This document shows, in pieces, positions 5,543-13,971 of a DNA stretch of 64,000 bases (positions within the stretch are counted from its first letter, which is position 1; each line of letters begins with the position of its first letter). Source of the stretch: Candidatus Peregrinibacteria bacterium (GTDB lineage Bacteria > Patescibacteriota > Gracilibacteria > UBA1369). A program made the translations under genes and the position numbers. The notes under the pieces were generated by a model. That model was not told the DNA's origin, did no database searches, and saw only the letters and a program-made list of their open reading frames with translations. Where the stretch lies: positions 448,001 to 512,000 of the forward strand of contig OY970195.1 of assembly GCA_963708185.1 (NCBI GenBank), read 5' to 3'.

Positions 5543-7180
5543 ATGTCTCAACCGGGTGAAACCCCCAAACCGTTAGAAGCTTCTCTTACAAGAGAGGTCG
5601 TGCATCGCCACGCACTTGAATTCAAGCCCTCGTTTGCGTTTCTGCAAAAACAAAAAGAGATCCAGTCCATAGCCATCAACCGCGAATTGGAGGAGCATAA
5701 ACTGAAGCTGGAGGAGGGAAGCGATCTTCTTTCCCTCAGGGTCCAGGCTGCGACGATCGGTTCGGAAAAAGACGTGAACCAGCAACTGGATGATGAAAGC
5801 TGTTGTTTGAACGATGAGGAGAAAAAGGCTTATTGCGAGACCGTTGATCAGTGCGTGGATGAACAGGGGACCACCGAGGATGATAAAGAGGCTCTTCGAA
5901 GAACGATGACGGAGGTCATCTTCAAACCCCGGGTCTTTCTTGCACACTATAAACACTGGCGGAAAAATTGGGATTCAGATCCAAAACTCCAGGAAAAATA
6001 TCCTGATTTCCAGGATTACGTTTTTGAACGGGCGAGAGCTTTTATCAATGCGCGCCGCAATGAAATCATTGCCTCACGCTTAAGGAAATTCCAGAAGGAT
6101 TCCATGCCAAAGACTCCGACGGCCGATCAGGGAAAAGAACAACTGAAGGATATCGATCGCAAGGTGATGAGTTTTATCAGGAAGCATGAAGATGAGTTGC
6201 TCGAATATAACGATTTGGACATCAAAGACCCTAAAAGGCAGGCGCTTTCCCAGAAATTTCTTGCTGAATCAGGTTTACAGGGGGCGAAAGCCGCAGAGGC
6301 GCGGAAGCTTTTTGAAGATATCATCGGGGACATCGAAGTGGCGTTTCTGGCTCAAAGAAAATTGGTCTCAAGTTATCAGGATATGGGAGGCCTTGCCCAG
6401 GACGCCATTGATCATAACGAAGATATCGATCAAGAAAAATGGAACAAGATGCTTCAAGACGATCTTCAGAAAGATCCATATTTTAAAGAGGCCCTGGAAC
6501 AGCAACAGGCTTTTGTCTATCAAGCAAGTGCGGATGCCGCTCTCGCGACGATGCCGTTGGACTCTCCGGAATCCGTAGCCATGCAGGCAGGCGGTTTACG
6601 CATCATGGGCTATGATCCCGCAACGGACACCTACACCGTTCGCTATCCGGACAGTACACTTGAAACGAAAATGAAAATTATTCCACGTCCGGGTTCAAAG
6701 ACCTTTGATGATGCCGAGTTCGTTTTTTATGATAAATATGCCGATAAAGCCAAAGGCAACGAGGTGCATTTTAAACGCGATAACTTGCGGAGCGGCTGCA
6801 ACCAGATGTTTCTTGATTACCTCATGAACGACTGGATCAGACAAAACAGCATGAGTCCGGATTTCAACGTCAATGATATCCTTACCGATGATACGATGTC
6901 ACGTATGGCGGAAAGACTTTTTGACAGAAGTCTCAACGATATCGTGCTGACGAAAAACATGCGTTTTATTTTCAGCAGATTTCTGGAGGTCATGATGAAA
7001 GGAGACAACTCATCGACGAAGTACGGTGATCTCGGTTCTTTTGAAGCTCGGGTAAAAAAGATGGATACGGTTATGATGAATCCATCCTATGCGAAAAAAC
7101 TTTACAAGGAGTTTGAAAAAATCGGATCGGTGGCTTTTACGGTTTCTACTTTGTTGGAGCACATCGATTATAAGGAGTAG
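5543..7180 (+). CDS. Hypothetical protein (545 aa, charged, largely helical)
   Basis: Long ORF divergent from umuD; extended -10 TGcTATAAT at 5505-5513; no motif recognised. Confidence 0.8.
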   Translation: MSQPGETPKPLEASLTREVVHRHALEFKPSFAFLQKQKEIQSIAINRELEEHKLKLEEGSDLLSLRVQAATIGSEKDVNQQLDDESCCLNDEEKKAYCETVDQCVDEQGTTEDDKEALRRTMTEVIFKPRVFLAHYKHWRKNWDSDPKLQEKYPDFQDYVFERARAFINARRNEIIASRLRKFQKDSMPKTPTADQGKEQLKDIDRKVMSFIRKHEDELLEYNDLDIKDPKRQALSQKFLAESGLQGAKAAEARKLFEDIIGDIEVAFLAQRKLVSSYQDMGGLAQDAIDHNEDIDQEKWNKMLQDDLQKDPYFKEALEQQQAFVYQASADAALATMPLDSPESVAMQAGGLRIMGYDPATDTYTVRYPDSTLETKMKIIPRPGSKTFDDAEFVFYDKYADKAKGNEVHFKRDNLRSGCNQMFLDYLMNDWIRQNSMSPDFNVNDILTDDTMSRMAERLFDRSLNDIVLTKNMRFIFSRFLEVMMKGDNSSTKYGDLGSFEARVKKMDTVMMNPSYAKKLYKEFEKIGSVAFTVSTLLEHIDYKE

Positions 7181-7197
7181 TTCACTTCGAGCATAGG

Positions 7198-7240
7198 AAA
7201 AAGCGCCCCTGAAGTCCTATGAAGGAAGCAGCGAGGCGCC
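7198..7240 (-). terminator. Structured intrinsic terminator of cassette 1
   Basis: Minus strand GGCGCCTC-gctgct-TCCT-tcat-AGGA-cttca-GGGGCGCT followed by a T run. Confidence 0.65.
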
Positions 7241-7298
7241 GAGTTGGTGGTTATTCAATGAAGTGAAGAAAAGTGGAGATAAGAAAGCTCGGCGGGGA

Positions 7299-8050
7299 TC
7301 AGTACTGGAGCAGGAATTCCGCTCCGTTCGGGCAGGAAGACGAGAGGTTGATGTTGGGGTTGGAACCGCAAGAGATTGCGGTGTACCCAACGCTGAAGAG
7401 TTCTCCCTCCATCTGCGAGTGATCGGGAGCGGGCCCGGACTGAACGTCGGGGCGCACTTTTTCGAACACGAGACGGGGTAGGAACCGAGCGAGCTTGCCT
7501 GGGATGCGTTGTTGTTGGGAGGGTCACCGACCCATACCATCACGACGCTTCCCGCGATGGGGTGGGTGTAGAACGGTTGGGTACCGTCCTGACACGTCGA
7601 GTCGTCGGGCGACGACTCCATGTTGTAAGTCGTCCCCAACTTGTTGAGGATGACCTTGTAGCACGAGTTCGTGCACTTGAAGGTGACCGCGTTGGGCTGC
7701 GGCGGGTCGTTGCAGAGAGGGGGAGCTCCACCGGAACCACCCGTACCGCCCATACCGCCAGAGCCGCCCATGCCGCCACCGCCGGTGGAGCTGGTTGCTC
7801 CGCCCATGCCGCCAGAACCGCCCTGGCCGCCTGAAGAGCTCGTCGAGCCCCCCATGCCGCCGGAGCCGCCCTGACTGGAACTGCTGGTGGTCTTGCCACC
7901 TCCAGTATCAGAGGTGGACATTCCTCCGGAACCACCTCCGCCTTGGTTGCAGATGTCCGGACAGGTGCCGTAGGAATCCAGGACGCATGCCTGGAGGACG
8001 AAGATCCCCATGCAGGGGAGCGACGTCATCAGTAAACTTTTCAGATGCAT
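7299..8050 (-). CDS. Gly-rich lipoprotein with 8-Cys C-terminal domain (copy 1), one-base deletion at ~7434-7436
   Basis: SD GGGAGG, start MHLKSLL, lipobox LQAC, GGSGGMGG linker. After restoring one G it ends ...SCGSNPNINLSSSCPNGAEFLLQY*, matching copy 2. Confidence 0.8.
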
Positions 8051-8094
8051 ATGACCTCCCGGGAGAAGAAAGTGCCTCCCTTGGAAATTTCGTA

Positions 8095-8216
8095 ACTTCA
8101 TTGATGTCAAACACCAGTCTTTTTGTTTGTAAACCGTCAGAAACTCCTTTAGGTGTTTGCGGTTCACAAAAGCAAAAAGAGCGTTTAATTATGGTGTAAA
8201 AGTGATAAAAAGTCAA
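8095..8216 (-). promoter_or_regulatory. Promoter (TTGACT-N17-CATAAT) and structured 5' leader of cassette 1
   Basis: -35 at 8211-8216, -10 at 8188-8193; long hairpin 8118-8180; segment 8095-8116 complementary to 3'UTR 7245-7264. Confidence 0.75.
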
Positions 8217-8224
8217 TACATAGG

Positions 8225-8265
8225 AAAAAGCGCCCAGAAGTCCTGGTAAGGAAGCAGCGGGCGCC
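8225..8265 (-). terminator. Structured intrinsic terminator of cassette 2
   Basis: Minus strand GGCGCCC-gctgct-TCCT-tacc-AGGA-cttct-GGGCGCT followed by a T run. Confidence 0.65.
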
Positions 8266-8319
8266 GGGTTGATGGTTGTACAATGAAGTAGAGCTAAGGA
8301 AGTTCGTCCGGCGCGAGAC

Positions 8320-9094
8320 CTAGTACTGGAGCAGGAAATCCGCTCCATGGGTGCAGGAAGGTGCCGAGAGGTTGATGTTGGGATTGGAACCGCACCCGAT
8401 GGTGTTGTATCCGGACGTGAAGAGTTCCGCTTCCATCTGCGAGTGATCGGGAGCGGGCCCCGGATTGAACGTCGGGGCGCACTTGACCGAACACGAGAGA
8501 GGGAACGAACCCTGGGAAACCGCCTGGATATTGTTGTTGTTCGCGGGGTCGTTGACCCACGCCATGACAACACTCCCGACGTTGGGGTGGGTGTAGAACG
8601 GTTGGGTACCGTCCTGGCACGTCGAGTCGTCGGGTGACGACTCCGCGTTGTTGGTCGTCCCCAACTTGTTGAGGATGACCTTGTAGCACGAGTTCGTGCA
8701 CTTGAAAGTGACCGCGTTGGGCTGCGGCGGGTCGTTGCAGAGGGGGAGCTCCACCGGAGCCGCCCATGCCGCCTGCACCACCCTGACCACTTGAACCGCC
8801 CATGCCGCCGGAACCCGCAGTTCCACCGGTGCCCGTTGCACCAGCTTCACCGCCCGCTCCAGCAGAGCCGCCTTGGCCGCCCATGCCGCCGAAACCCGCA
8901 GTTCCACCGGTGCCCGTTGCACCAGCTTCGCCACCGGTTCCTGCAGAGCCGCCTTGGCCGTCGCTTCCGGCCTGACCGCTCGAACCGCCGGAACCTCCGG
9001 GGCCGAACAGCGGGTCCGAATTCAGACCGCATCCCCCCGAGTAGAGGGCGGCGGCCAGGATCATCGGACAATACATGAATACCGTGAGACGCAT
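8320..9094 (-). CDS. Gly-rich lipoprotein with 8-Cys C-terminal domain (copy 2), frameshift at ~8739-8746
   Basis: SD AAGGAGG, start MRLTVF, lipobox-like SGGC, Gly linker; the Cys domain CNDPPQPN...DFLLQY* is in another frame, and copy 1 has one more CT at this site. Confidence 0.8.
8799..8960. repeat. Two 81-bp tandem repeats encoding a 27-aa Gly-rich unit
   Basis: GQGGSAG(T/A)GGEAGATGTGGTAG(F/S)GGMG twice; units start at 8799 and 8880. Confidence 0.9.
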
Positions 9095-9151
9095 CAGTTT
9101 ACTCCTCCTTTTATAGGTTATGTCCTTCTAAATGTTGAGGACAGTTTCGTT

Positions 9152-9273
9152 TACTTCATTGATTTCAAACATCAGTCTTTTCGTTTGTAGGCCGTCAAAA
9201 CTCCTGTCTATATTTGCGGCTCACAAAAGCAAAAAGAGCAGTTTATTATTATACAAAATTGCAATTAAGTCAA
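9152..9273 (-). promoter_or_regulatory. Promoter (TTGACT-N17-AATAAT) and structured 5' leader of cassette 2
   Basis: -35 at 9268-9273, -10 at 9245-9250; hairpin 9176-9237; segment 9152-9174 complementary to 3'UTR 8270-8290. Confidence 0.75.
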
Positions 9274-9399
9274 TAGCTCCAATTTTTATTTTGTTTGAAG
9301 GTAAAGAAGAAGAAAGTGGAATGAAGTTAGAATGCAAAAAATATTCATGAAAAGAGAGGAGGGGGACAGTCTAAAGGTATTTGGTCCTCTATCTTTTAT

Positions 9400-9423
9400 T
9401 TTGCACAATATATCTTGTGCAAA
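9400..9423. promoter_or_regulatory. Palindromic putative operator TTTGCACAA-tatatc-TTGTGCAAA
   Basis: Perfect 9-bp arms in an AT-rich intergenic region. Confidence 0.4.
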
Positions 9424-9579
9424 TATTAAACTTATTCTTGCTTCAAAAAGTGGGTTTTTTTCAGGTTTATCGTTGATATGTGGCTTCTCGACTGGCTTTA
9501 CTAAAAACTTTCGATTTTAGCCGTTTTAATATCTTTTTTGGGTTTTGATACCTTTGAATAAATTTTTCGAAATGTGTTT

Positions 9580-11907
9580 TTAGCGTTTGAAACGATTTTT
9601 ACCGATTTCGATAATTTTTTCGAGCAGTTGTCTCGGACTGAGAGGTTTTGGTAAAGATGCCGCTTGCTGGAAGAAAGTCGTTGAAGGCGTGAGTGCCGGT
9701 AAGGTATTTGCTTCTATAATGATCAATTCACCGGTTTTACGGTTCATAAAACAGTCCATACGGGTATAACCCTCGATATCCAAGGCGTCGGCAACCTTTT
9801 TTAATCGTTGTCTGACTTTTTTCAAGACCGTGCGACTCACGAATTTTTCTGGAGGAGGGACAAGATTGATGCCGGTACCGCCCATGAATTTTTCTTCAAG
9901 ACTGAGCGTTTCGCCCTTGGCGATGGTCTGGCTTGGAGAAAGGACGGTCAATTTGCCTTTCGGACCGAGAAAACCGACGGTCATTTCGATCAATCCGCTG
10001 CGGTTTTCCCAATGAATGGTAAGATTTTCGAGTGTTACTTTGTCACAGACAATAAAGTTTTCGATGAGTATTTCATTGAGTTTTTTTTCTGGAAGATCGA
10101 TTTGTCCGTGGAACGGATGAATTGCCCGTTCCGGAATGCAGGGGTTGCCGCTGCGAAAATATTGAATAGCTTTTTTGAACTCGTTTTCGTTGTTGATGCG
10201 GATAACCCCGGCGGAACAACCGTCACCTCTCGGTTTCAAGATAATTGACTTGTTGAATTTTAATTCTTTGAGTTTTTTCCAGGTTTTCTGCGGATTTTCG
10301 TCGATAGGCATCAAATATTTTTTTGCGATACCGACTCCAGGAATTTTGGCTTGTTCAATCCTCTGCCCCGTGGCGAATTTATCCATACAGAGCATGGAGC
10401 AGCCCGTACCGGGACCGTTATAGGGAAGGCGGAGGCGGTCGAGAAGATTTTGCATGGTGCCGTTTTCCCCCGCTCCCCCATGCAGCCCGAGAAACAGAAA
10501 TTTGTAATCTTTTGAAATAGATTCAATGGATGTCTGACGCGGAATAAAAATGGGCTCCTTCACGTTTTTTTTGTCGATGACGAGTCCGGCAAGAATGTGG
10601 TCGGCCTCTTTTTCGAGCCTTTCGAAATAATTGGAGTTCTTGAACAGTTTGATCTTTTCTTCGATCTCTTCGACGGTGTGTTGAAGACACAGAAATTGCG
10701 GTATATAAAAGATTTTTTGATCGAACGTCAGAAAAAGAGGCACCGGACTGTATTTTTTACTTAACTTGAGTTTCATCCAGACATTGGTTCCACTCATCAC
10801 AGAAACCTGCCGTTCTGCGGTGTTTCCTCCGAAAATTACCGGAATTTCTTCTTTTTTTTCATCGTCAGGTCCGGATTTTCCGACAGTTTTATTGATGATG
10901 TAGTCGAGCAGCTGGCGATGACTTAATCCCAATAATGCGGCCTGCTGGAAAAGGAAACTGTTCTGCTCCATACCGCTGATGGCGTTGATGTCGCTGAACC
11001 AGATCGATCCGTCATCGAGCACCCAGCCGTCAAGACGGCCGAAATCGTTCATGCCCAGGCATTTGAAGGCGTGAGCCGCCTGTACGCGGATTTTTTCGGT
11101 GGTTTTCTCGTCAAAGCGCGCAGGGGTGTGATATCGGGTTTCAGCAGTTGGAAGATATTTCTTGCGATAGTCGAAAAATCTGTCTTTCTTCAGTTCGATT
11201 TCCGTCGGCATCAATGCCACTGCGTCTCCTCCGGCATTTTCCAGCACAATAATAGTGAATTCCCTGCCGCTGACTTCAGGCTCAATGATGGCTTTATCTT
11301 CGTGTTTAAAAACCTCAACCAGTTTGTCTTTCAGTTCTTTGGGGTCACGGATGTACTGTACTCCGATACTCGAGCCGCCATGGAGTGGTTTTGCAACCCA
11401 TTTGCCTTTCGGAAGTTTCGGTAATTTCGCCCCTTTTTTTATTACATAGTCCTTTAGGGTGAAGAATCCGTGTTTCTTGAGGATTTCCTGGCAACGGTGT
11501 TTGTCCGACGTGTTCATGCAGGCTCTCGGACTCGAGCCGAGATAAGGAACCTCCATTTTTTCGAGCAGCGTTTGGAGCTGTCCGTCCTCTCCGAATGCTC
11601 CATGGATTGCCGGAAAAACAAGGTCGATTTTCTTAAGAAGTTTTCGCAGCTGCGCTGTAGTCAGCATCCTTTTGCTTTTTTTCAGCTTGTAATCAAAATC
11701 AAGAGGCGTGTTGGAGTAAATTTCCGTGGATTTTATCTGAAAAAACCTCAGTTTGGGATTGACGTATACAATGGTGAGTTCGTAGTTGTCCGGATCAAGA
11801 TTATCAAAGAGCGAACGCGCGGAGTTCAATGAAATTCCGCGTTCAGCCGAAGGTCCGCCGCAGATGATAGCAATTTTTTTCCTTTTTCGAGATTTTTTTT
11901 GAGGCAT
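9580..11907 (-). CDS. ddl: Tandem-domain D-alanine--D-alanine ligase
   Basis: Two Ddl units: GGPSAERGISLNSA/HGAFGEDG/GSSIGV and GGNTAERQVSVMSG/LHGGAGENG/EANTLPALT. Confidence 0.88.
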   Translation of the reverse strand: MPQKKSRKRKKIAIICGGPSAERGISLNSARSLFDNLDPDNYELTIVYVNPKLRFFQIKSTEIYSNTPLDFDYKLKKSKRMLTTAQLRKLLKKIDLVFPAIHGAFGEDGQLQTLLEKMEVPYLGSSPRACMNTSDKHRCQEILKKHGFFTLKDYVIKKGAKLPKLPKGKWVAKPLHGGSSIGVQYIRDPKELKDKLVEVFKHEDKAIIEPEVSGREFTIIVLENAGGDAVALMPTEIELKKDRFFDYRKKYLPTAETRYHTPARFDEKTTEKIRVQAAHAFKCLGMNDFGRLDGWVLDDGSIWFSDINAISGMEQNSFLFQQAALLGLSHRQLLDYIINKTVGKSGPDDEKKEEIPVIFGGNTAERQVSVMSGTNVWMKLKLSKKYSPVPLFLTFDQKIFYIPQFLCLQHTVEEIEEKIKLFKNSNYFERLEKEADHILAGLVIDKKNVKEPIFIPRQTSIESISKDYKFLFLGLHGGAGENGTMQNLLDRLRLPYNGPGTGCSMLCMDKFATGQRIEQAKIPGVGIAKKYLMPIDENPQKTWKKLKELKFNKSIILKPRGDGCSAGVIRINNENEFKKAIQYFRSGNPCIPERAIHPFHGQIDLPEKKLNEILIENFIVCDKVTLENLTIHWENRSGLIEMTVGFLGPKGKLTVLSPSQTIAKGETLSLEEKFMGGTGINLVPPPEKFVSRTVLKKVRQRLKKVADALDIEGYTRMDCFMNRKTGELIIIEANTLPALTPSTTFFQQAASLPKPLSPRQLLEKIIEIGKNRFKR

Positions 11908-11932
11908 ATTAGCTCTTATTCTAGTGAAAAGG

Positions 11933-13971
11933 TTAGTCTTTGACAAATACCTCCTGGAGTTCGTCGATTTTCGCTTTGAGCGTGGGATACGAAACAAGTT
12001 CGGGATCTTTTTCGATGACGTTCTGCGCGGCCTGTCGGGCGAGGCTGATCGTAAAGGAGTCGCTCAGCGACGCCATTTTGAGATCGGGTATGCCGCTTTG
12101 CCTGACTCCGTAAATTTCCCCGGGGCCGCGGATCTGGAGGTCGATTTCGGCCAGTTTGAATCCGCTGGAAAAATCCACCATGGCGCGGAGTCGTTTTGTC
12201 GCCTCTTCCCCGGATTTTTTCATGAAGAGAAAACAGTAGGACTGATGTTCTCCTCTTCCGACGCGTCCCCTGAACTGATGGAGCTGCGAAAGGCCGAATC
12301 TTTCGGCGGCTTCGATGACCATGATGCTGGCGTTGGGGACGTCTATGCCGACTTCGATAACCGAGGTGGATACCAGGATGTGTATCTTGTTCTGTGAAAA
12401 GAGCGTCATAGTTTCTTCTTTGTCTTTCGGTTTCATTTTTCCGTGCAGGAGCCCGACTTTGAGTTCGGGAAAAATGTGCTCCTGAAGATATTCGTATTCC
12501 TGGATGGCGGACTTTACTTCGAGAACGTCGGATTCGTCAATCAACGGGCAGATGATGAAAGCCTGTCTTCCCTTCTTGACCTGTTCTTTGATCCATTTGT
12601 AACCGTCGAGGCGTTTTTTTTCGGGAACGATGCGCGTCTGGATCTGCTGACGTCCTTTGGGCATTTCATCGATGACGGAAAGGTCCTGGTCGCCATAGAC
12701 GGTCATGGCGAGCGTCCGAGGAATTGGCGTGGCCGAAAGACTTAGTAAATGCGGGCTTCCCTGGGACTTGAGGATGTCGCGTTGTTTCACCCCGAAGCGG
12801 TGTTGTTCATCGATGACGGCCAGGCCGAGTTTTTTGAAGCCGATGGTTTCCTGGATGAGCGCGTGCGTTCCGATGACGATATCGATTGTCCCGTTTTTCA
12901 GCTGAAGTGTGATGTCGTCTTTGATGCTTTGCGGAGTGCTTCCGGCGATGAACTGGATATTGAGACCGAACGGCTGGAGCATCTTGTAGACGGTGTGGTA
13001 GTGCTGTTTGGAAAGGATTTCGGTCGGAGCCATGAGTGCAGTTTGATAGCCGTTTTTTACGGCATCGAGCATGGCCGCAGCGGCCACGACGGTTTTTCCG
13101 GAGCCTACGTCACCCTGGAGGAGCCGCGACATGGGGTATGGTTTGTTGAGGTCGGTAAAAATTTCTTCGATGGCACGGAGCTGGGCTCCGGTCAGTTCAA
13201 AAGGAAGTTGCTTGAAGAATTTTTCAACCTCGGGAAGGCGCGGTAACGGTTTTTGTTCATGGACGGCCACGTTCTGCCAGCGCCATTTTTTCTGGAGCGC
13301 CTTGACCTGGAGCAGGAACAATTCGTCGAAACTGAGGCGTTTTTTGGCTTCTTCCAGGGTTTGTTCGTCCGTGGGAAAGTGGACTTCAGCGACGGCCTGC
13401 TGATAGTTCATCAATTTGTATTCCTTGATGATTTCAGGAGGCATGTAGTCCTTGAAATGTTTGACCCAGTCCTTGATGAGCGGCTGGATTTTTTCGCGCA
13501 GCCACTTGGAACTCAGGCCTGCGGTTTCGTGATAGACCGGAACGATGCGGCCCACGTGTGTCTGCTCTTTTTTTTGTTCTTCGAACGAGGGCTCTGGAGC
13601 GTCATTTTCCCCAGGTTGAATTTTGCTTTTCCGGAGAGGATGATCTCCTGGCCGTTCTTGAGGACGCGTTTGAGGTAGGGCTGGTTGAACCAGATGACTT
13701 CGACCGAACCGGTGTCGTCGCTCAAAAGCGCTTTGGTCAGATGTTTGCCGTTCTTGGTCCTTTTGTGGAAAATGTTGCTGAGCGTTCCGATAACGTTGTT
13801 GATTTCATCTGTTTTGAGATCGCTGATGTTGGTGTAGGCGCTTTTGTCGACGTAGGTCCGCGGAAAATACAGGACGAGATCGCGTACGGTCTTGATCCCC
13901 AGTTCCTGGAGTTTCACCGCGTGTTCCTTGTTGGTGCGGAGGACTTGTTGTAGAGGAGATTTGAGGCTCAT
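11933..13971 (-). CDS. recG: ATP-dependent DNA helicase RecG, split by an apparent one-base deletion at ~13568-13591
   Basis: N-terminal wedge (DLVLYFPRTY, WFNQPY) in ORF 13513-13971; QGDVGSGKT, DEQHRFGV, SATPIPRT, QFRGRVGRG in ORF 11933-13555. Confidence 0.93.

What the first reader, a model, noticed from the sequence alone, without database searches (positions are those of the whole stretch)
7245..9174. mRNA cassettes closed by a covarying leader-trailer helix (5'UTR pairs with 3'UTR)
Seen: on the minus strand, cassette 1 leader TGGTG-t-TTG-aca-TCAATGAAGT (8116-8095) is complementary to its trailer ACTTCATTGA-a-TAA-c-CACCA (7264-7245). Cassette 2 leader TGATG-t-TTG-aaat-CAATGAAGTA (9174-9152) is complementary to its trailer TACTTCATTG-ta-CAA-c-CATCA (8290-8270). 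TGGTG/CACCA versus TGATG/CATCA is a compensatory change ~850 nt apart. Established: long-range leader-trailer stems with a TTTGA(C/A)A-like segment are a hallmark of pre-rRNA processing (RNase III), not of ordinary mRNAs. Inference: these protein-coding transcripts fold into a closed, end-protected RNA that may be processed, circularised or packaged. This may define an undescribed class of CPR mRNA cassettes. Caveat: only two copies and few covarying pairs.
Basis: partly seen in the sequence, partly recalled or inferred. Interest (0 to 1): 0.88.

Follow-up and report, generated by a model that had tools for sequence, protein, structure and literature searches.

The report
Lipoprotein mRNAs closed by a 5'UTR-3'UTR helix
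Two neighbouring surface-lipoprotein genes of a small-genome (candidate phyla radiation) bacterium each seem to make an mRNA whose leader pairs with its own tail just before the terminator, and relatives keep this pairing with different sequences, which is rare for bacterial mRNAs but still untested by experiment.

Summary
On the minus strand, two tandem cassettes each have their own sigma-70-like promoter and terminator. Leader segments 8116-8095 and 9174-9152 are complementary to trailer segments 7264-7245 and 8290-8270.

Within this genome alone the match is not exceptional. An exact complement of 10 nt or more between gene flanks occurs in 19 of 1041 ORFs.

The weight comes from comparison. 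Eight more testable cassettes of the same lipoprotein family, in three same-genus genomes, share one architecture:
- a 52-66-nt 5' hairpin;
- then a leader arm;
- a trailer arm ending 0-3 nt before the terminator stem;
- 21-30 predicted pairs between the arms, with different arm sequences in different lineages.

Landmark-restricted cognate pairs beat composition-matched shuffles in 9 of 10 cassettes (0-12 of 500). They also beat every one of 20000 permutations of partners. Full-length mRNA folds contain the helix in 10 of 10.

Best reading (about 0.65): an RNA-level closing helix of the icaR/hbs kind, probably controlling mRNA stability or processing.

Not supported: circularisation, packaging, or a link to rRNA processing. 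Less restricted tests lose significance, and no RNA data exist. Verdict: new variant of a known kind, interest about 0.6.

The parts
9245..9273 (-). Cassette 2 promoter-like site (-35/-10)
   Evidence: TTGACT, 17-nt spacer, AATAAT; 10 of 12 matches.
9175..9240 (-). Cassette 2 5'-terminal leader hairpin. The start depends on a predicted, unmapped transcription start.
   Evidence: -19.7 kcal/mol, z -2.99, 4 of 200 shuffles fold as well; self-contained in the full-length fold, with 0 pairs to the outside.
9138..9175 (-). Cassette 2 leader arm.
   Evidence: 28 predicted pairs with the trailer arm in the core duplex; 18 core-to-core pairs in the full-length minimum-free-energy fold.
8320..9094 (-). 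Cassette 2 coding region: lipoprotein signal, Gly-rich linker and a ~140-aa Cys-containing C-domain. It is interrupted by a frameshift near 8745-8739. The C-domain frame is 8757-8323 and the stop is 8322-8320.
   Evidence: two overlapping ORFs (9094-8294 and 8934-8320). A 2-nt gap relative to cassette 1 in a CT repeat.
8269..8310 (-). Cassette 2 trailer arm. Positions 8302-8296 pair with the Shine-Dalgarno region in the predicted fold.
8225..8265 (-). Cassette 2 intrinsic terminator hairpin plus U-run
   Evidence: -17.3 kcal/mol, z -2.75. The inner hairpin is also found.
8188..8216 (-). Cassette 1 promoter-like site
   Evidence: TTGACT, 17-nt spacer, CATAAT; 10 of 12 matches.
8117..8181 (-). 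Cassette 1 5'-terminal leader hairpin (predicted transcription start)
   Evidence: -23.1 kcal/mol, z -5.60, 0 of 200 shuffles fold as well; self-contained.
8077..8117 (-). Cassette 1 leader arm.
   Evidence: 27 predicted pairs in the core duplex; 21 core-to-core pairs in the full-length fold.
7299..8050 (-). Cassette 1 coding region of the same family. It is interrupted by a 1-nt frameshift at the G-run 7436-7434. The conserved stop is 7301-7299. The shifted frame runs on to a stop at 7219-7217, through the trailer arm.
7244..7278 (-). Cassette 1 trailer arm.
7197..7240 (-). Cassette 1 intrinsic terminator hairpin plus U-run
   Evidence: -18.5 kcal/mol, z -1.83.

Best explanation
Each cassette is a monocistronic transcription unit whose mRNA folds into a 'panhandle'. 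A 52-66-nt hairpin sits at the predicted 5' end. It is followed at once by a leader arm that pairs with a trailer arm in the 3'UTR. There are 21-30 pairs, interrupted by small loops. The trailer arm ends 0-3 nt before the terminator hairpin. The three helices would meet at one junction and enclose the ribosome-binding site and the whole coding region in one large loop.

Shown here, in silico: the complementarity, its conserved position, its maintenance with different sequences across lineages, and its presence in full-length folds.

Inferred: that it forms in the cell and that it acts on mRNA fate. I commit to stabilisation as the most likely role. The genome encodes RNase Y, RNase J and RNase III but no detectable Hfq, which is a Bacillus-like decay machinery. 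A 5' hairpin would block 5'-end-dependent attack. The closing helix would hide cleavage sites in the 5'UTR, as the 5'/3'UTR pairing of B. subtilis hbs does against RNase Y. The next most likely role is that the helix is an RNase III substrate that processes or destabilises the mRNA, as in S. aureus icaR. In the G000/G003 subfamily the predicted pairing also reaches the ribosome-binding region, so translation may be affected there as well.
For: Anatomy in the window: promoters, terminators, arms.

Same architecture in relatives. The protein's C-domain is found in 6 of 61 genomes searched, essentially one genus. A syntenic 4-cassette array lies in G003. There is an array in G002 and cassettes in G004.

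Core duplexes of the 10 testable cassettes have 21-30 pairs at -17.4 to -32.4 kcal/mol. The trailer arm ends 0-3 nt from the terminator stem.

Landmark-restricted test:
- Shuffles pairing as well as the cognate: 0, 2, 3, 81, 5, 3, 1, 2, 12 and 0 of 500. The 81 is the multiply frameshifted G003_B.
- Mean cognate energy is -24.8 against -15.2 for non-cognate pairs.
- 0 of 20000 permutations of partners reach the diagonal sum.
- The cognate is best in its row in 6 of 10 cassettes and best in its column in 7 of 10.

The arms differ between lineages while staying complementary. At one aligned helix position the pair is U-A in G002 c2/c3 and C-G in G002 c4. At another it is G-C in G002 c4 and A-U in its G004 counterpart. 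The third helix segment of those two has unrelated sequences in each. The single G004 cassette uses yet another ~30-pair duplex.

Full-length folds of 902-1042 nt have 15-29 core-to-core pairs in the minimum-free-energy structure in 10 of 10. The ensemble expectation is 15-28 pairs. With shuffled trailer cores the count is 0-17, mean 4.55, over 20 shuffles, and it is below the native value in all 10 cassettes.

The 5' hairpin is self-contained in 10 of 10. z is -1.7 to -5.6, with 0-13 of 200 shuffles folding as well.

Last-in-array and single cassettes keep a trailer matched to their own leader. The region upstream of the promoter is not complementary beyond chance in first or single cassettes: 81, 101, 116, 25 and 198 of 200.

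Enzymes: RNase III, RNase Y and RNase J are present. No Hfq was found in this 99% complete genome.

Precedent: icaR, hbs and RNAIII/hld 5'UTR-3'UTR interactions (PMC7821165, passages read).
Against: No transcript data. Transcription starts and 3' ends are predictions, and the 5' hairpin boundaries were taken from the folds themselves.

Significance depends on restricting the search to landmarks that I chose after seeing the pairings: a short conserved leader motif and the terminator stem start. Less restricted tests are weak:
- Permissive local complement alignment is no better than shuffles: 3 to 79 of 100.
- Cofold interaction energy gives z -0.9 to -3.5 and 0-18 of 100. The cognate is best in its row in only 4 of 11.
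- A window-grid search of 110 nt of leader against the whole pre-terminator 3'UTR reaches 1 of 100 or fewer in only 4 of 10 cassettes, and 10-94 of 100 in the other 6.

Genome-wide, the two window cassettes are not outliers.

Sense and antisense duplex energies show no consistent asymmetry. Sense is better in 6 and antisense in 4, including both window cassettes. Wobble pairs therefore do not show that the sense RNA is the paired molecule.

The cassettes are paralogues and orthologues from one genus, perhaps five independent lineages.

Both window genes are frameshifted, so they may be pseudogenes.

Shine-Dalgarno pairing with the 3'UTR is inconsistent: mean probability 0.21-0.61 in 5 cassettes and about 0 in the other 5.
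Confidence: 0.65

Rival explanations
1. [quoted passage not shown] It pairs in trans with the leader of its own and sister cassettes. This would give autoregulation or cross-regulation, as OppZ and CarZ do in Vibrio cholerae.
For: The trailer arm sits 0-3 nt in front of the terminator hairpin. That is the usual seed-plus-terminator layout of 3'UTR-derived sRNAs (PMC7398697 and PMC9438474, seen as search listing and abstract only). The two window cassettes share a nearly identical long arm, so cross-pairing is possible: non-cognate energies are -14.3 and -18.6 against -23.1 and -22.3 for the cognates.
Against: No Hfq was found in this 99% complete genome. Cognate specificity and a 21-30-pair duplex fit an intramolecular helix more simply than a seed interaction. 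No RNA data exist to show a processed species (one search listed no run).
Confidence: 0.1
2. The arms are DNA-level inverted repeats flanking the coding region. They would be sites of site-specific or homologous inversion that flips the gene relative to its fixed promoter, giving phase variation of a surface lipoprotein.
For: The arms are inverted repeats by definition. There is no sense/antisense asymmetry in pairing energy. The genes encode surface lipoproteins in tandem arrays with frameshifted copies, which is the typical setting of phase variation. Two tyrosine and two large serine recombinases are encoded in the genome. Recombinase-driven switching of lipoprotein families is known in Mycoplasma (PMC5634654, abstract in a search listing).
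Against: The repeats are imperfect and bipartite, with conserved asymmetric internal loops. Their sequences differ between cassettes of one genome, so there is no common recombinase site. All 11 assembled cassettes lie in the promoter-sense orientation. The recombinase genes are more than 260 kb from the array. The arms lie inside the transcription unit, next to a conserved 5' hairpin and the terminator, which a DNA site would not need.
Confidence: 0.09
3. The true partners are neighbours. The trailer of the upstream cassette would pair with the leader of the next cassette across the promoter (~110-190 nt). That would be either an invertible promoter or a hairpin in read-through transcripts that RNase III cuts to separate the mRNAs.
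For: In arrays the upstream trailer is also complementary to the next leader: G003_B 4 of 200 and G002_c3 1 of 200. Short complementary stretches lie upstream of the first promoters, at window 9292-9309 (repeat I6) and as a 9-mer upstream of the G003_D promoter.
Against: For first or single cassettes the region upstream of the promoter is not complementary beyond chance: 81, 101, 116, 25 and 198 of 200. Last and single cassettes keep a trailer that matches their own leader best. Examples are G004_29 at -31.6 against -7.7, G002_c4 at -32.4 against -21.2 and G003_A at -23.5 against -17.0.
Confidence: 0.04
4. There is no function. The complementarity arose once by chance or by a rearrangement in the ancestral cassette and is decaying passively. 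The 5' hairpin and terminator are ordinary mRNA features.
For: Comparable exact complements occur in 19 of 1041 ORF flanks of this genome. Unrestricted tests are not significant. All cassettes descend from one family.
Against: The arms have diverged to unrelated sequences in different lineages yet remain complementary at the same landmarks. That requires changes on both sides. 0 of 20000 partner permutations reach the cognate sum. The most degenerate pairings belong to the multiply broken copies G003_B and G003_D.
Confidence: 0.12

Closest known systems
B. subtilis hbs mRNA 5'/3'-UTR interaction (Braun, Durand and Condon 2017, as described in review PMC7821165, passages read)
   Same: The 5'UTR pairs with the 3'UTR of the same mRNA. 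The organism has an RNase Y/RNase J type decay machinery. A protective role is proposed.
   Different: The hbs interaction is 14 nt. The review says functional 3'UTRs such as that of hbs are not conserved among orthologues of close relatives. Here the duplex has 21-30 pairs, abuts a 5' hairpin and the terminator, and is kept across paralogues and orthologues with different sequences. No experiment exists here.
[quoted passage not shown]
   Same: The 3'UTR pairs with the 5'UTR of its own mRNA and creates a double-stranded RNase III substrate. In the G000/G003 subfamily the predicted pairing reaches the ribosome-binding region. RNase III is encoded.
   Different: In icaR the key element is an anti-Shine-Dalgarno UCCCC motif. 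Here the conserved core helix lies upstream of the Shine-Dalgarno sequence, and Shine-Dalgarno pairing is absent in 5 of 10 cassettes.
Pre-rRNA leader-spacer processing stems cut by RNase III (textbook knowledge, recalled)
   Same: A long-range helix formed by sequences flanking a ~1-kb functional RNA, of a length suitable for RNase III.
   Different: This helix encloses a protein-coding mRNA with its own promoter and terminator. Rfam finds no rRNA or other family here. No sequence relation to rRNA operons was tested or seen.
Autoregulatory 3'UTR-derived sRNAs OppZ and CarZ (PMC7398697, listing and abstract)
   Same: A pairing segment directly upstream of the terminator of the regulated gene's own transcript.
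   Different: Those act in trans with Hfq and RNase E. No Hfq was found here, and the pairing is long and cognate-specific.
Phase-variable lipoprotein families switched by DNA inversion. Mycoplasma Vpma/Xer1 is from PMC5634654 (abstract in listing). Invertible promoters such as fimS and the M. penetrans mpl genes are recalled.
   Same: Tandem surface-lipoprotein genes in a small genome, flanked by inverted repeats, with frameshifted copies.
   Different: The repeats flank the coding region, not the promoter. They are imperfect and differ from cassette to cassette. No adjacent recombinase was found and no inverted copy was seen.

Membership tests
mRNAs with a 5'UTR-3'UTR interaction (icaR/hbs kind) | Complementary segments in the 5'UTR and the 3'UTR of one transcription unit | tested here: met
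   The arms lie between the predicted promoter and start codon, and between the stop codon and terminator.
mRNAs with a 5'UTR-3'UTR interaction (icaR/hbs kind) | Both segments are present on the same RNA molecule (mapped 5' and 3' ends) | not testable with these tools
   No sequencing run was listed. Promoters and terminators are consensus and fold predictions only.
mRNAs with a 5'UTR-3'UTR interaction (icaR/hbs kind) | The interaction changes mRNA stability, cleavage or translation | not testable with these tools
   This needs reporter, half-life or cleavage assays.
mRNAs with a 5'UTR-3'UTR interaction (icaR/hbs kind) | The pairing is thermodynamically plausible in the full-length RNA | tested here: met
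   15-29 core-to-core pairs in the minimum-free-energy fold in 10 of 10; 0-17 (mean 4.55) with shuffled trailer cores.
RNase III processing stem (pre-rRNA-like) | About two turns of double-stranded RNA formed by flanking sequences | tested here: met
   21-30 predicted pairs interrupted by small loops.
RNase III processing stem (pre-rRNA-like) | RNase III is encoded by the organism | tested here: met
   TIGR02191 at 252.1 bits, above the cut-off.
RNase III processing stem (pre-rRNA-like) | Cleavage within the stem | not testable with these tools
   No RNA ends are available.
Invertible DNA segment (inverton or shufflon-like) | A common recombinase-site consensus shared by the inverted repeats of one genome | tested here: not met
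   The arm sequences differ between cassettes of G002 and of G003. Only a short motif is shared.
Invertible DNA segment (inverton or shufflon-like) | Both orientations are observed | tested here: inconclusive
   0 of 11 assembled cassettes are inverted. Reads could not be examined.
Invertible DNA segment (inverton or shufflon-like) | A dedicated recombinase next to the locus | tested here: not met
   The recombinase-family matches lie at 722, 1024, 1380 and 1414 kb. The array is at 455-457 kb.
3'UTR-derived autoregulatory sRNA (OppZ kind) | A pairing seed directly upstream of the terminator | tested here: met
   0-3 nt from the terminator stem.
3'UTR-derived autoregulatory sRNA (OppZ kind) | An Hfq-type chaperone and a processed stable 3' fragment | tested here: not met
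   No Hfq match in the 99% complete genome. The processed fragment itself is not testable.
Rfam families | A match to any curated RNA family | tested here: not met
   only two chance-level matches (E 4.9 and 5.6) in 6500-10000.

The most novel reading that the evidence does not exclude
These are dedicated 'panhandle' mRNAs in which the 5' hairpin, the closing helix and the terminator form one junction that works as a quality switch. When translation stops at the proper stop codon, the helix stays closed and the mRNA is long-lived, or is matured by RNase III into an end-paired form. When a slipped repeat shifts the frame, ribosomes run into the trailer arm, open the helix and expose the mRNA to RNase Y/J. 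This happens in cassette 1, where the shifted frame ends at 7219-7217. Phase-variable frameshifts would then be coupled to rapid mRNA removal. The same design may be widespread in 3'UTRs of candidate phyla radiation bacteria, but it is invisible to local-structure searches.
Probability: 0.1. Interest if true: 0.85.

Novelty: new variant of a known kind. Interest (0 to 1): 0.6.

Why it matters
Only a handful of bacterial mRNAs are known to pair their 5'UTR with their 3'UTR. Review PMC7821165 (passages read) stresses that such functional 3'UTRs are usually not conserved even among close relatives. If this reading is right, a whole gene family keeps such a helix while its sequence drifts. That would give comparative evidence that end-to-end closure of an mRNA can be under selection in bacteria.

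It would also give a defined and easily mutated model: two arms, a 5' hairpin and a terminator. With it one could test how RNase Y, J and III read mRNA architecture in an uncultivated, small-genome lineage.

It also shows that local-window RNA searches miss this kind of element. If it is a DNA-level repeat instead, it would be an unusual way of switching surface lipoproteins. Either way it concerns how these episymbiont-like bacteria control abundant surface proteins.

Tried and rejected
1. Rfam scan of 6500-10000: nothing credible.

2. More copies in the same genome. BLAST of the leader and a degenerate 12-nt leader motif found only the two known cassettes. 6 other motif hits looked like chance.

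3. Protein identity. No Pfam family. The only database relative among longer proteins is the window's own product. An AlphaFold model (pLDDT 83) has no PDB fold match at E 0.001 or better.

4. More loci. One metagenome contig, whose trailer is off the contig. One genome-contig hit, which is G003 itself, titled as a Candidatus Gracilibacteria MAG.

5. Statistics that did not discriminate:
- Full-length RNAduplex of whole leader against whole trailer gives long spurious duplexes.
- Permissive Smith-Waterman complement score.
- Cofold interaction energy, which was only weakly discriminating.
- Automated terminator picking from folds was unusable, so I set terminator starts by eye.
- Window-grid test.

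6. Genome-wide control: the window cassettes are not outliers.

7. Wobble-pair strand asymmetry: none.

8. Promoter-flanking (inverton-like) pairing: rejected for first and single cassettes.

9. Whole-cassette MAFFT alignment A4 put the arms of different subfamilies in different columns. I therefore did not run the count of structure pairs or build a covariance model. A long-range helix across a variable ~800-nt coding region cannot be modelled with these tools.

10. A leader peptide or a second promoter at the TTGACA-like motif: considered by eye and rejected. There is no conserved ORF and no -10 box at the right spacing.

11. Genetic code 25: considered because of the Gracilibacteria label. 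It was rejected by inspection, because homologues end at the same residue with TAG or TGA and long table-11 ORFs surround the locus.

12. Sequencing runs: none was listed. No RNA holder was listed.

14. Rows dropped before the counts. G003_D was dropped because it has lost its stop codon, is frameshifted and has no recognisable terminator landmark. L025 was dropped because its trailer is not on the contig. Short-leader paralogues (L030-L033) were tested separately, and 1 of 4 reached 0 of 100.

15. No supplementary files were consulted.


Full report
WHAT IS THERE

On the minus strand between a 545-aa ORF (5543-7180, plus strand) and an 805-aa ORF (9580-11997) lie two tandem cassettes that are 81% identical.

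Each cassette has the following parts:
- A sigma-70-like promoter at 9273-9245 or 8216-8188, each 10 of 12 matches.
- A leader of about 130-150 nt.
- A G+C-rich coding region. Window GC is 0.575-0.581 at 7001-9000 against 0.39-0.53 elsewhere.
- A short 3'UTR.
- A terminator hairpin with a U-run.

The product has a lipoprotein-type signal ending in Cys, a Gly-rich low-complexity linker and a ~140-residue Cys-containing C-domain. There is no Pfam match. Both copies are interrupted by a frameshift. The genome is a single 1.44-Mb contig, and the window is C1:448001-512000. A same-genus genome is titled a Candidatus Gracilibacteria MAG.

CHECK OF THE OBSERVATION

The 9-mer of the long arm occurs 5 times in the window, 4 of them at these sites, where 0.76 is expected. 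In full-length minimum-free-energy folds the pairs are 8116-8095 with 7245-7264 and 9174-9152 with 8270-8290. The G-C/A-U difference is at 8114/7247 versus 9172/8272.

Inside this genome alone the feature is not remarkable:
- 19 of 1041 ORFs have an exact complement of 10 nt or more between their flanks.
- By raw duplex energy the two cassettes rank 587 and 814 of 1041.
- The leader has only these two copies in the genome.

RELATIVES

The C-domain was found in 6 of 61 genomes searched. These are G000, three of the four other genomes of its genus, and two marginal hits elsewhere.
- G003 carries a syntenic array of four cassettes. A and C are intact. B and D are broken, and D has also lost its stop codon.
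- G002 has an array of one plain gene followed by three cassettes.
- G004 has a cassette behind a plain gene, plus a solitary cassette.
- One metagenome contig holds a leader but not the trailer.
- A second, short-leader subfamily and a three-gene operon lack the long leader.

This gives 10 cassettes in which leader and trailer can both be read. G003_D and L025 were left out.

ARCHITECTURE

In all 10 cassettes the first 52-72 nt after the predicted start are self-contained, with 0 pairs to the rest of the RNA. Within that stretch a 52-66-nt hairpin folds at -17.7 to -23.5 kcal/mol, z -1.7 to -5.6, and 0-13 of 200 shuffles fold as well.

The leader arm follows directly after this domain. The trailer arm ends 0-3 nt before the terminator stem. 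The arms form 21-30 predicted pairs with small internal loops, at -17.4 to -32.4 kcal/mol.

The arms are different sequences in different lineages. G000/G003, G002 c2/c3, the pair G002 c4 and G004_28c2, and G004_29 each use their own helix. Between close relatives there are changes on both sides that keep pairs. Examples are U-A to C-G and G-C to A-U within one helix of the G002/G004 group, and an entirely different third helix segment in the two orthologous last-in-array cassettes.

TESTS

Landmark-restricted test. I cut a 46-nt leader core around a short conserved motif and a trailer core of up to 46 nt ending at the terminator stem.
- Shuffles pairing as well as the cognate: 0, 2, 3, 81, 5, 3, 1, 2, 12 and 0 of 500. 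The 81 belongs to the broken copy B.
- The cognate mean is -24.8 against -15.2 kcal/mol for non-cognate pairs.
- 0 of 20000 permutations of partners reach the cognate sum.

Full-length transcripts of 902-1042 nt fold with 15-29 core-to-core pairs in 10 of 10. With shuffled trailer cores the count is 0-17, mean 4.55, over 20 shuffles.

RESULTS AGAINST THIS READING

Results against my reading are as follows:
- A permissive complement alignment does not separate native from shuffled trailers.
- Cofold interaction energies give only z -0.9 to -3.5, and the cognate partner is best in 4 of 11 rows.
- A wider window-grid search is significant (1 of 100 or fewer) in 4 of 10 only.
- Sense and antisense energies show no consistent asymmetry.
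- The landmarks were chosen after I had seen the pairings.
- The cassettes are related to each other.

WHICH PARTNERS, AND RNA OR DNA?

In arrays the upstream trailer lies only 110-190 nt from the next leader, across the promoter. I therefore tested an inverton-like or read-through hairpin. For first or single cassettes the region upstream of the promoter is not complementary beyond chance (81, 101, 116, 25 and 198 of 200). Last and single cassettes keep a trailer that fits their own leader far better. The cognate, long-range pairing is therefore the conserved one.

Four points speak for RNA over DNA:
- The arms lie inside the predicted transcript.
- They abut two other RNA hairpins.
- They are imperfect, with conserved asymmetric loops.
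- They lack a common site sequence.

In addition, no cassette is assembled inverted (0 of 11), and recombinase genes lie more than 260 kb away. Without reads a DNA inversion cannot be excluded.

MECHANISM

The genome encodes RNase III, RNase Y with a second weaker copy and RNase J. Hfq was not found.

My best reading is as follows. The 5' hairpin, the closing helix and the terminator lock both mRNA ends together and shield the 5'UTR. This would stabilise the message of an abundant surface protein, in the way the hbs 5'/3'UTR pairing protects against RNase Y. The alternative within the same RNA model is an RNase III site that matures or destabilises the mRNA, as in icaR (PMC7821165, passages read).

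Predicted pairing of the ribosome-binding region with the 3'UTR is seen in about half of the cassettes only. These functional steps are inference.

COMPARISON AND NOVELTY

5'UTR-3'UTR interactions in bacterial mRNAs are a known kind (icaR, hbs, RNAIII/hld). What differs here is the length of the duplex, its junction with a 5' hairpin and the terminator, and its maintenance with changing sequence across a gene family in a candidate phyla radiation lineage.

My searches for such a conserved, covarying case and for Gracilibacteria lipoprotein switching listed nothing of the kind. That is not proof that none is in print. I rate it a new variant of a known kind. Circularisation, packaging and a relation to rRNA processing remain without support.

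VERDICT

- Observation: confirmed.
- Interpretation: partly supported.
- Best explanation: RNA-level closing helix, confidence about 0.65.
- Interest: about 0.6.

Noticed in passing
window 7434-7436 and 8739-8745 (minus strand); L023 cassettes B and D: Both window cassettes are frameshifted at short repeats: a G-run in cassette 1 and a CT repeat in cassette 2. In G003 two of four cassettes are also broken, and D has lost its stop codon. The cause could be phase variation, pseudogenes or assembly error. In cassette 1 the shifted frame reads through the trailer arm to a stop at 7219-7217. In cassette 2 it stops at 8296-8294, just before the arm core.
   Followed up: partly
window 7001-9000: The coding regions are much richer in G+C (0.575-0.581 per kb) than the rest of the window (0.39-0.53). 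Their leaders and trailers are A+T-rich.
   Followed up: no
window 8323-8757 (minus strand); alignment A3: The ~140-aa C-domain is an orphan. It has no Pfam family. The AlphaFold model is a mostly beta fold with pLDDT 83, and there is no PDB fold match at E 0.001 or better. Four Cys residues and one Trp are invariant in 18 family members. The family was found essentially in one genus.
   Followed up: partly
window 9292-9325 (minus strand); L023 about 6897-6905: Short stretches complementary to the first cassette's leader lie just upstream of its promoter in both G000 and G003. They may be relics of lost cassettes. They are not beyond chance in the shuffle test (81 and 101 of 200).
   Followed up: yes
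L032 (G003:C5), short-leader paralogue: One of four short-leader paralogues also shows 5'/3' flank complementarity beyond shuffles (0 of 100). The other three do not (23, 95 and 12 of 100).
   Followed up: no
G000:C1:177.5-180.2 kb (L024): Three more distant paralogues (29-34% identical to the cassette 2 C-domain in alignment A3) stand head to tail with 9-35-nt gaps and no individual leaders or terminators. The cassette design is therefore not a property of the whole protein family.
   Followed up: partly
G000:C1:253084-254586 and 1196606-1198114: There are two RNase Y-like genes, at 605.8 bits (above the cut-off) and 419.4 bits (below it).
   Followed up: no
window 5543-7180 and 9580-11997; L023: The array sits at the same place in G000 and G003, between the same two flanking genes. 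It has 2 cassettes in G000 and 4 in G003, where an extra 314-aa gene also lies between the array and the 805-aa gene's homologue.
   Followed up: partly
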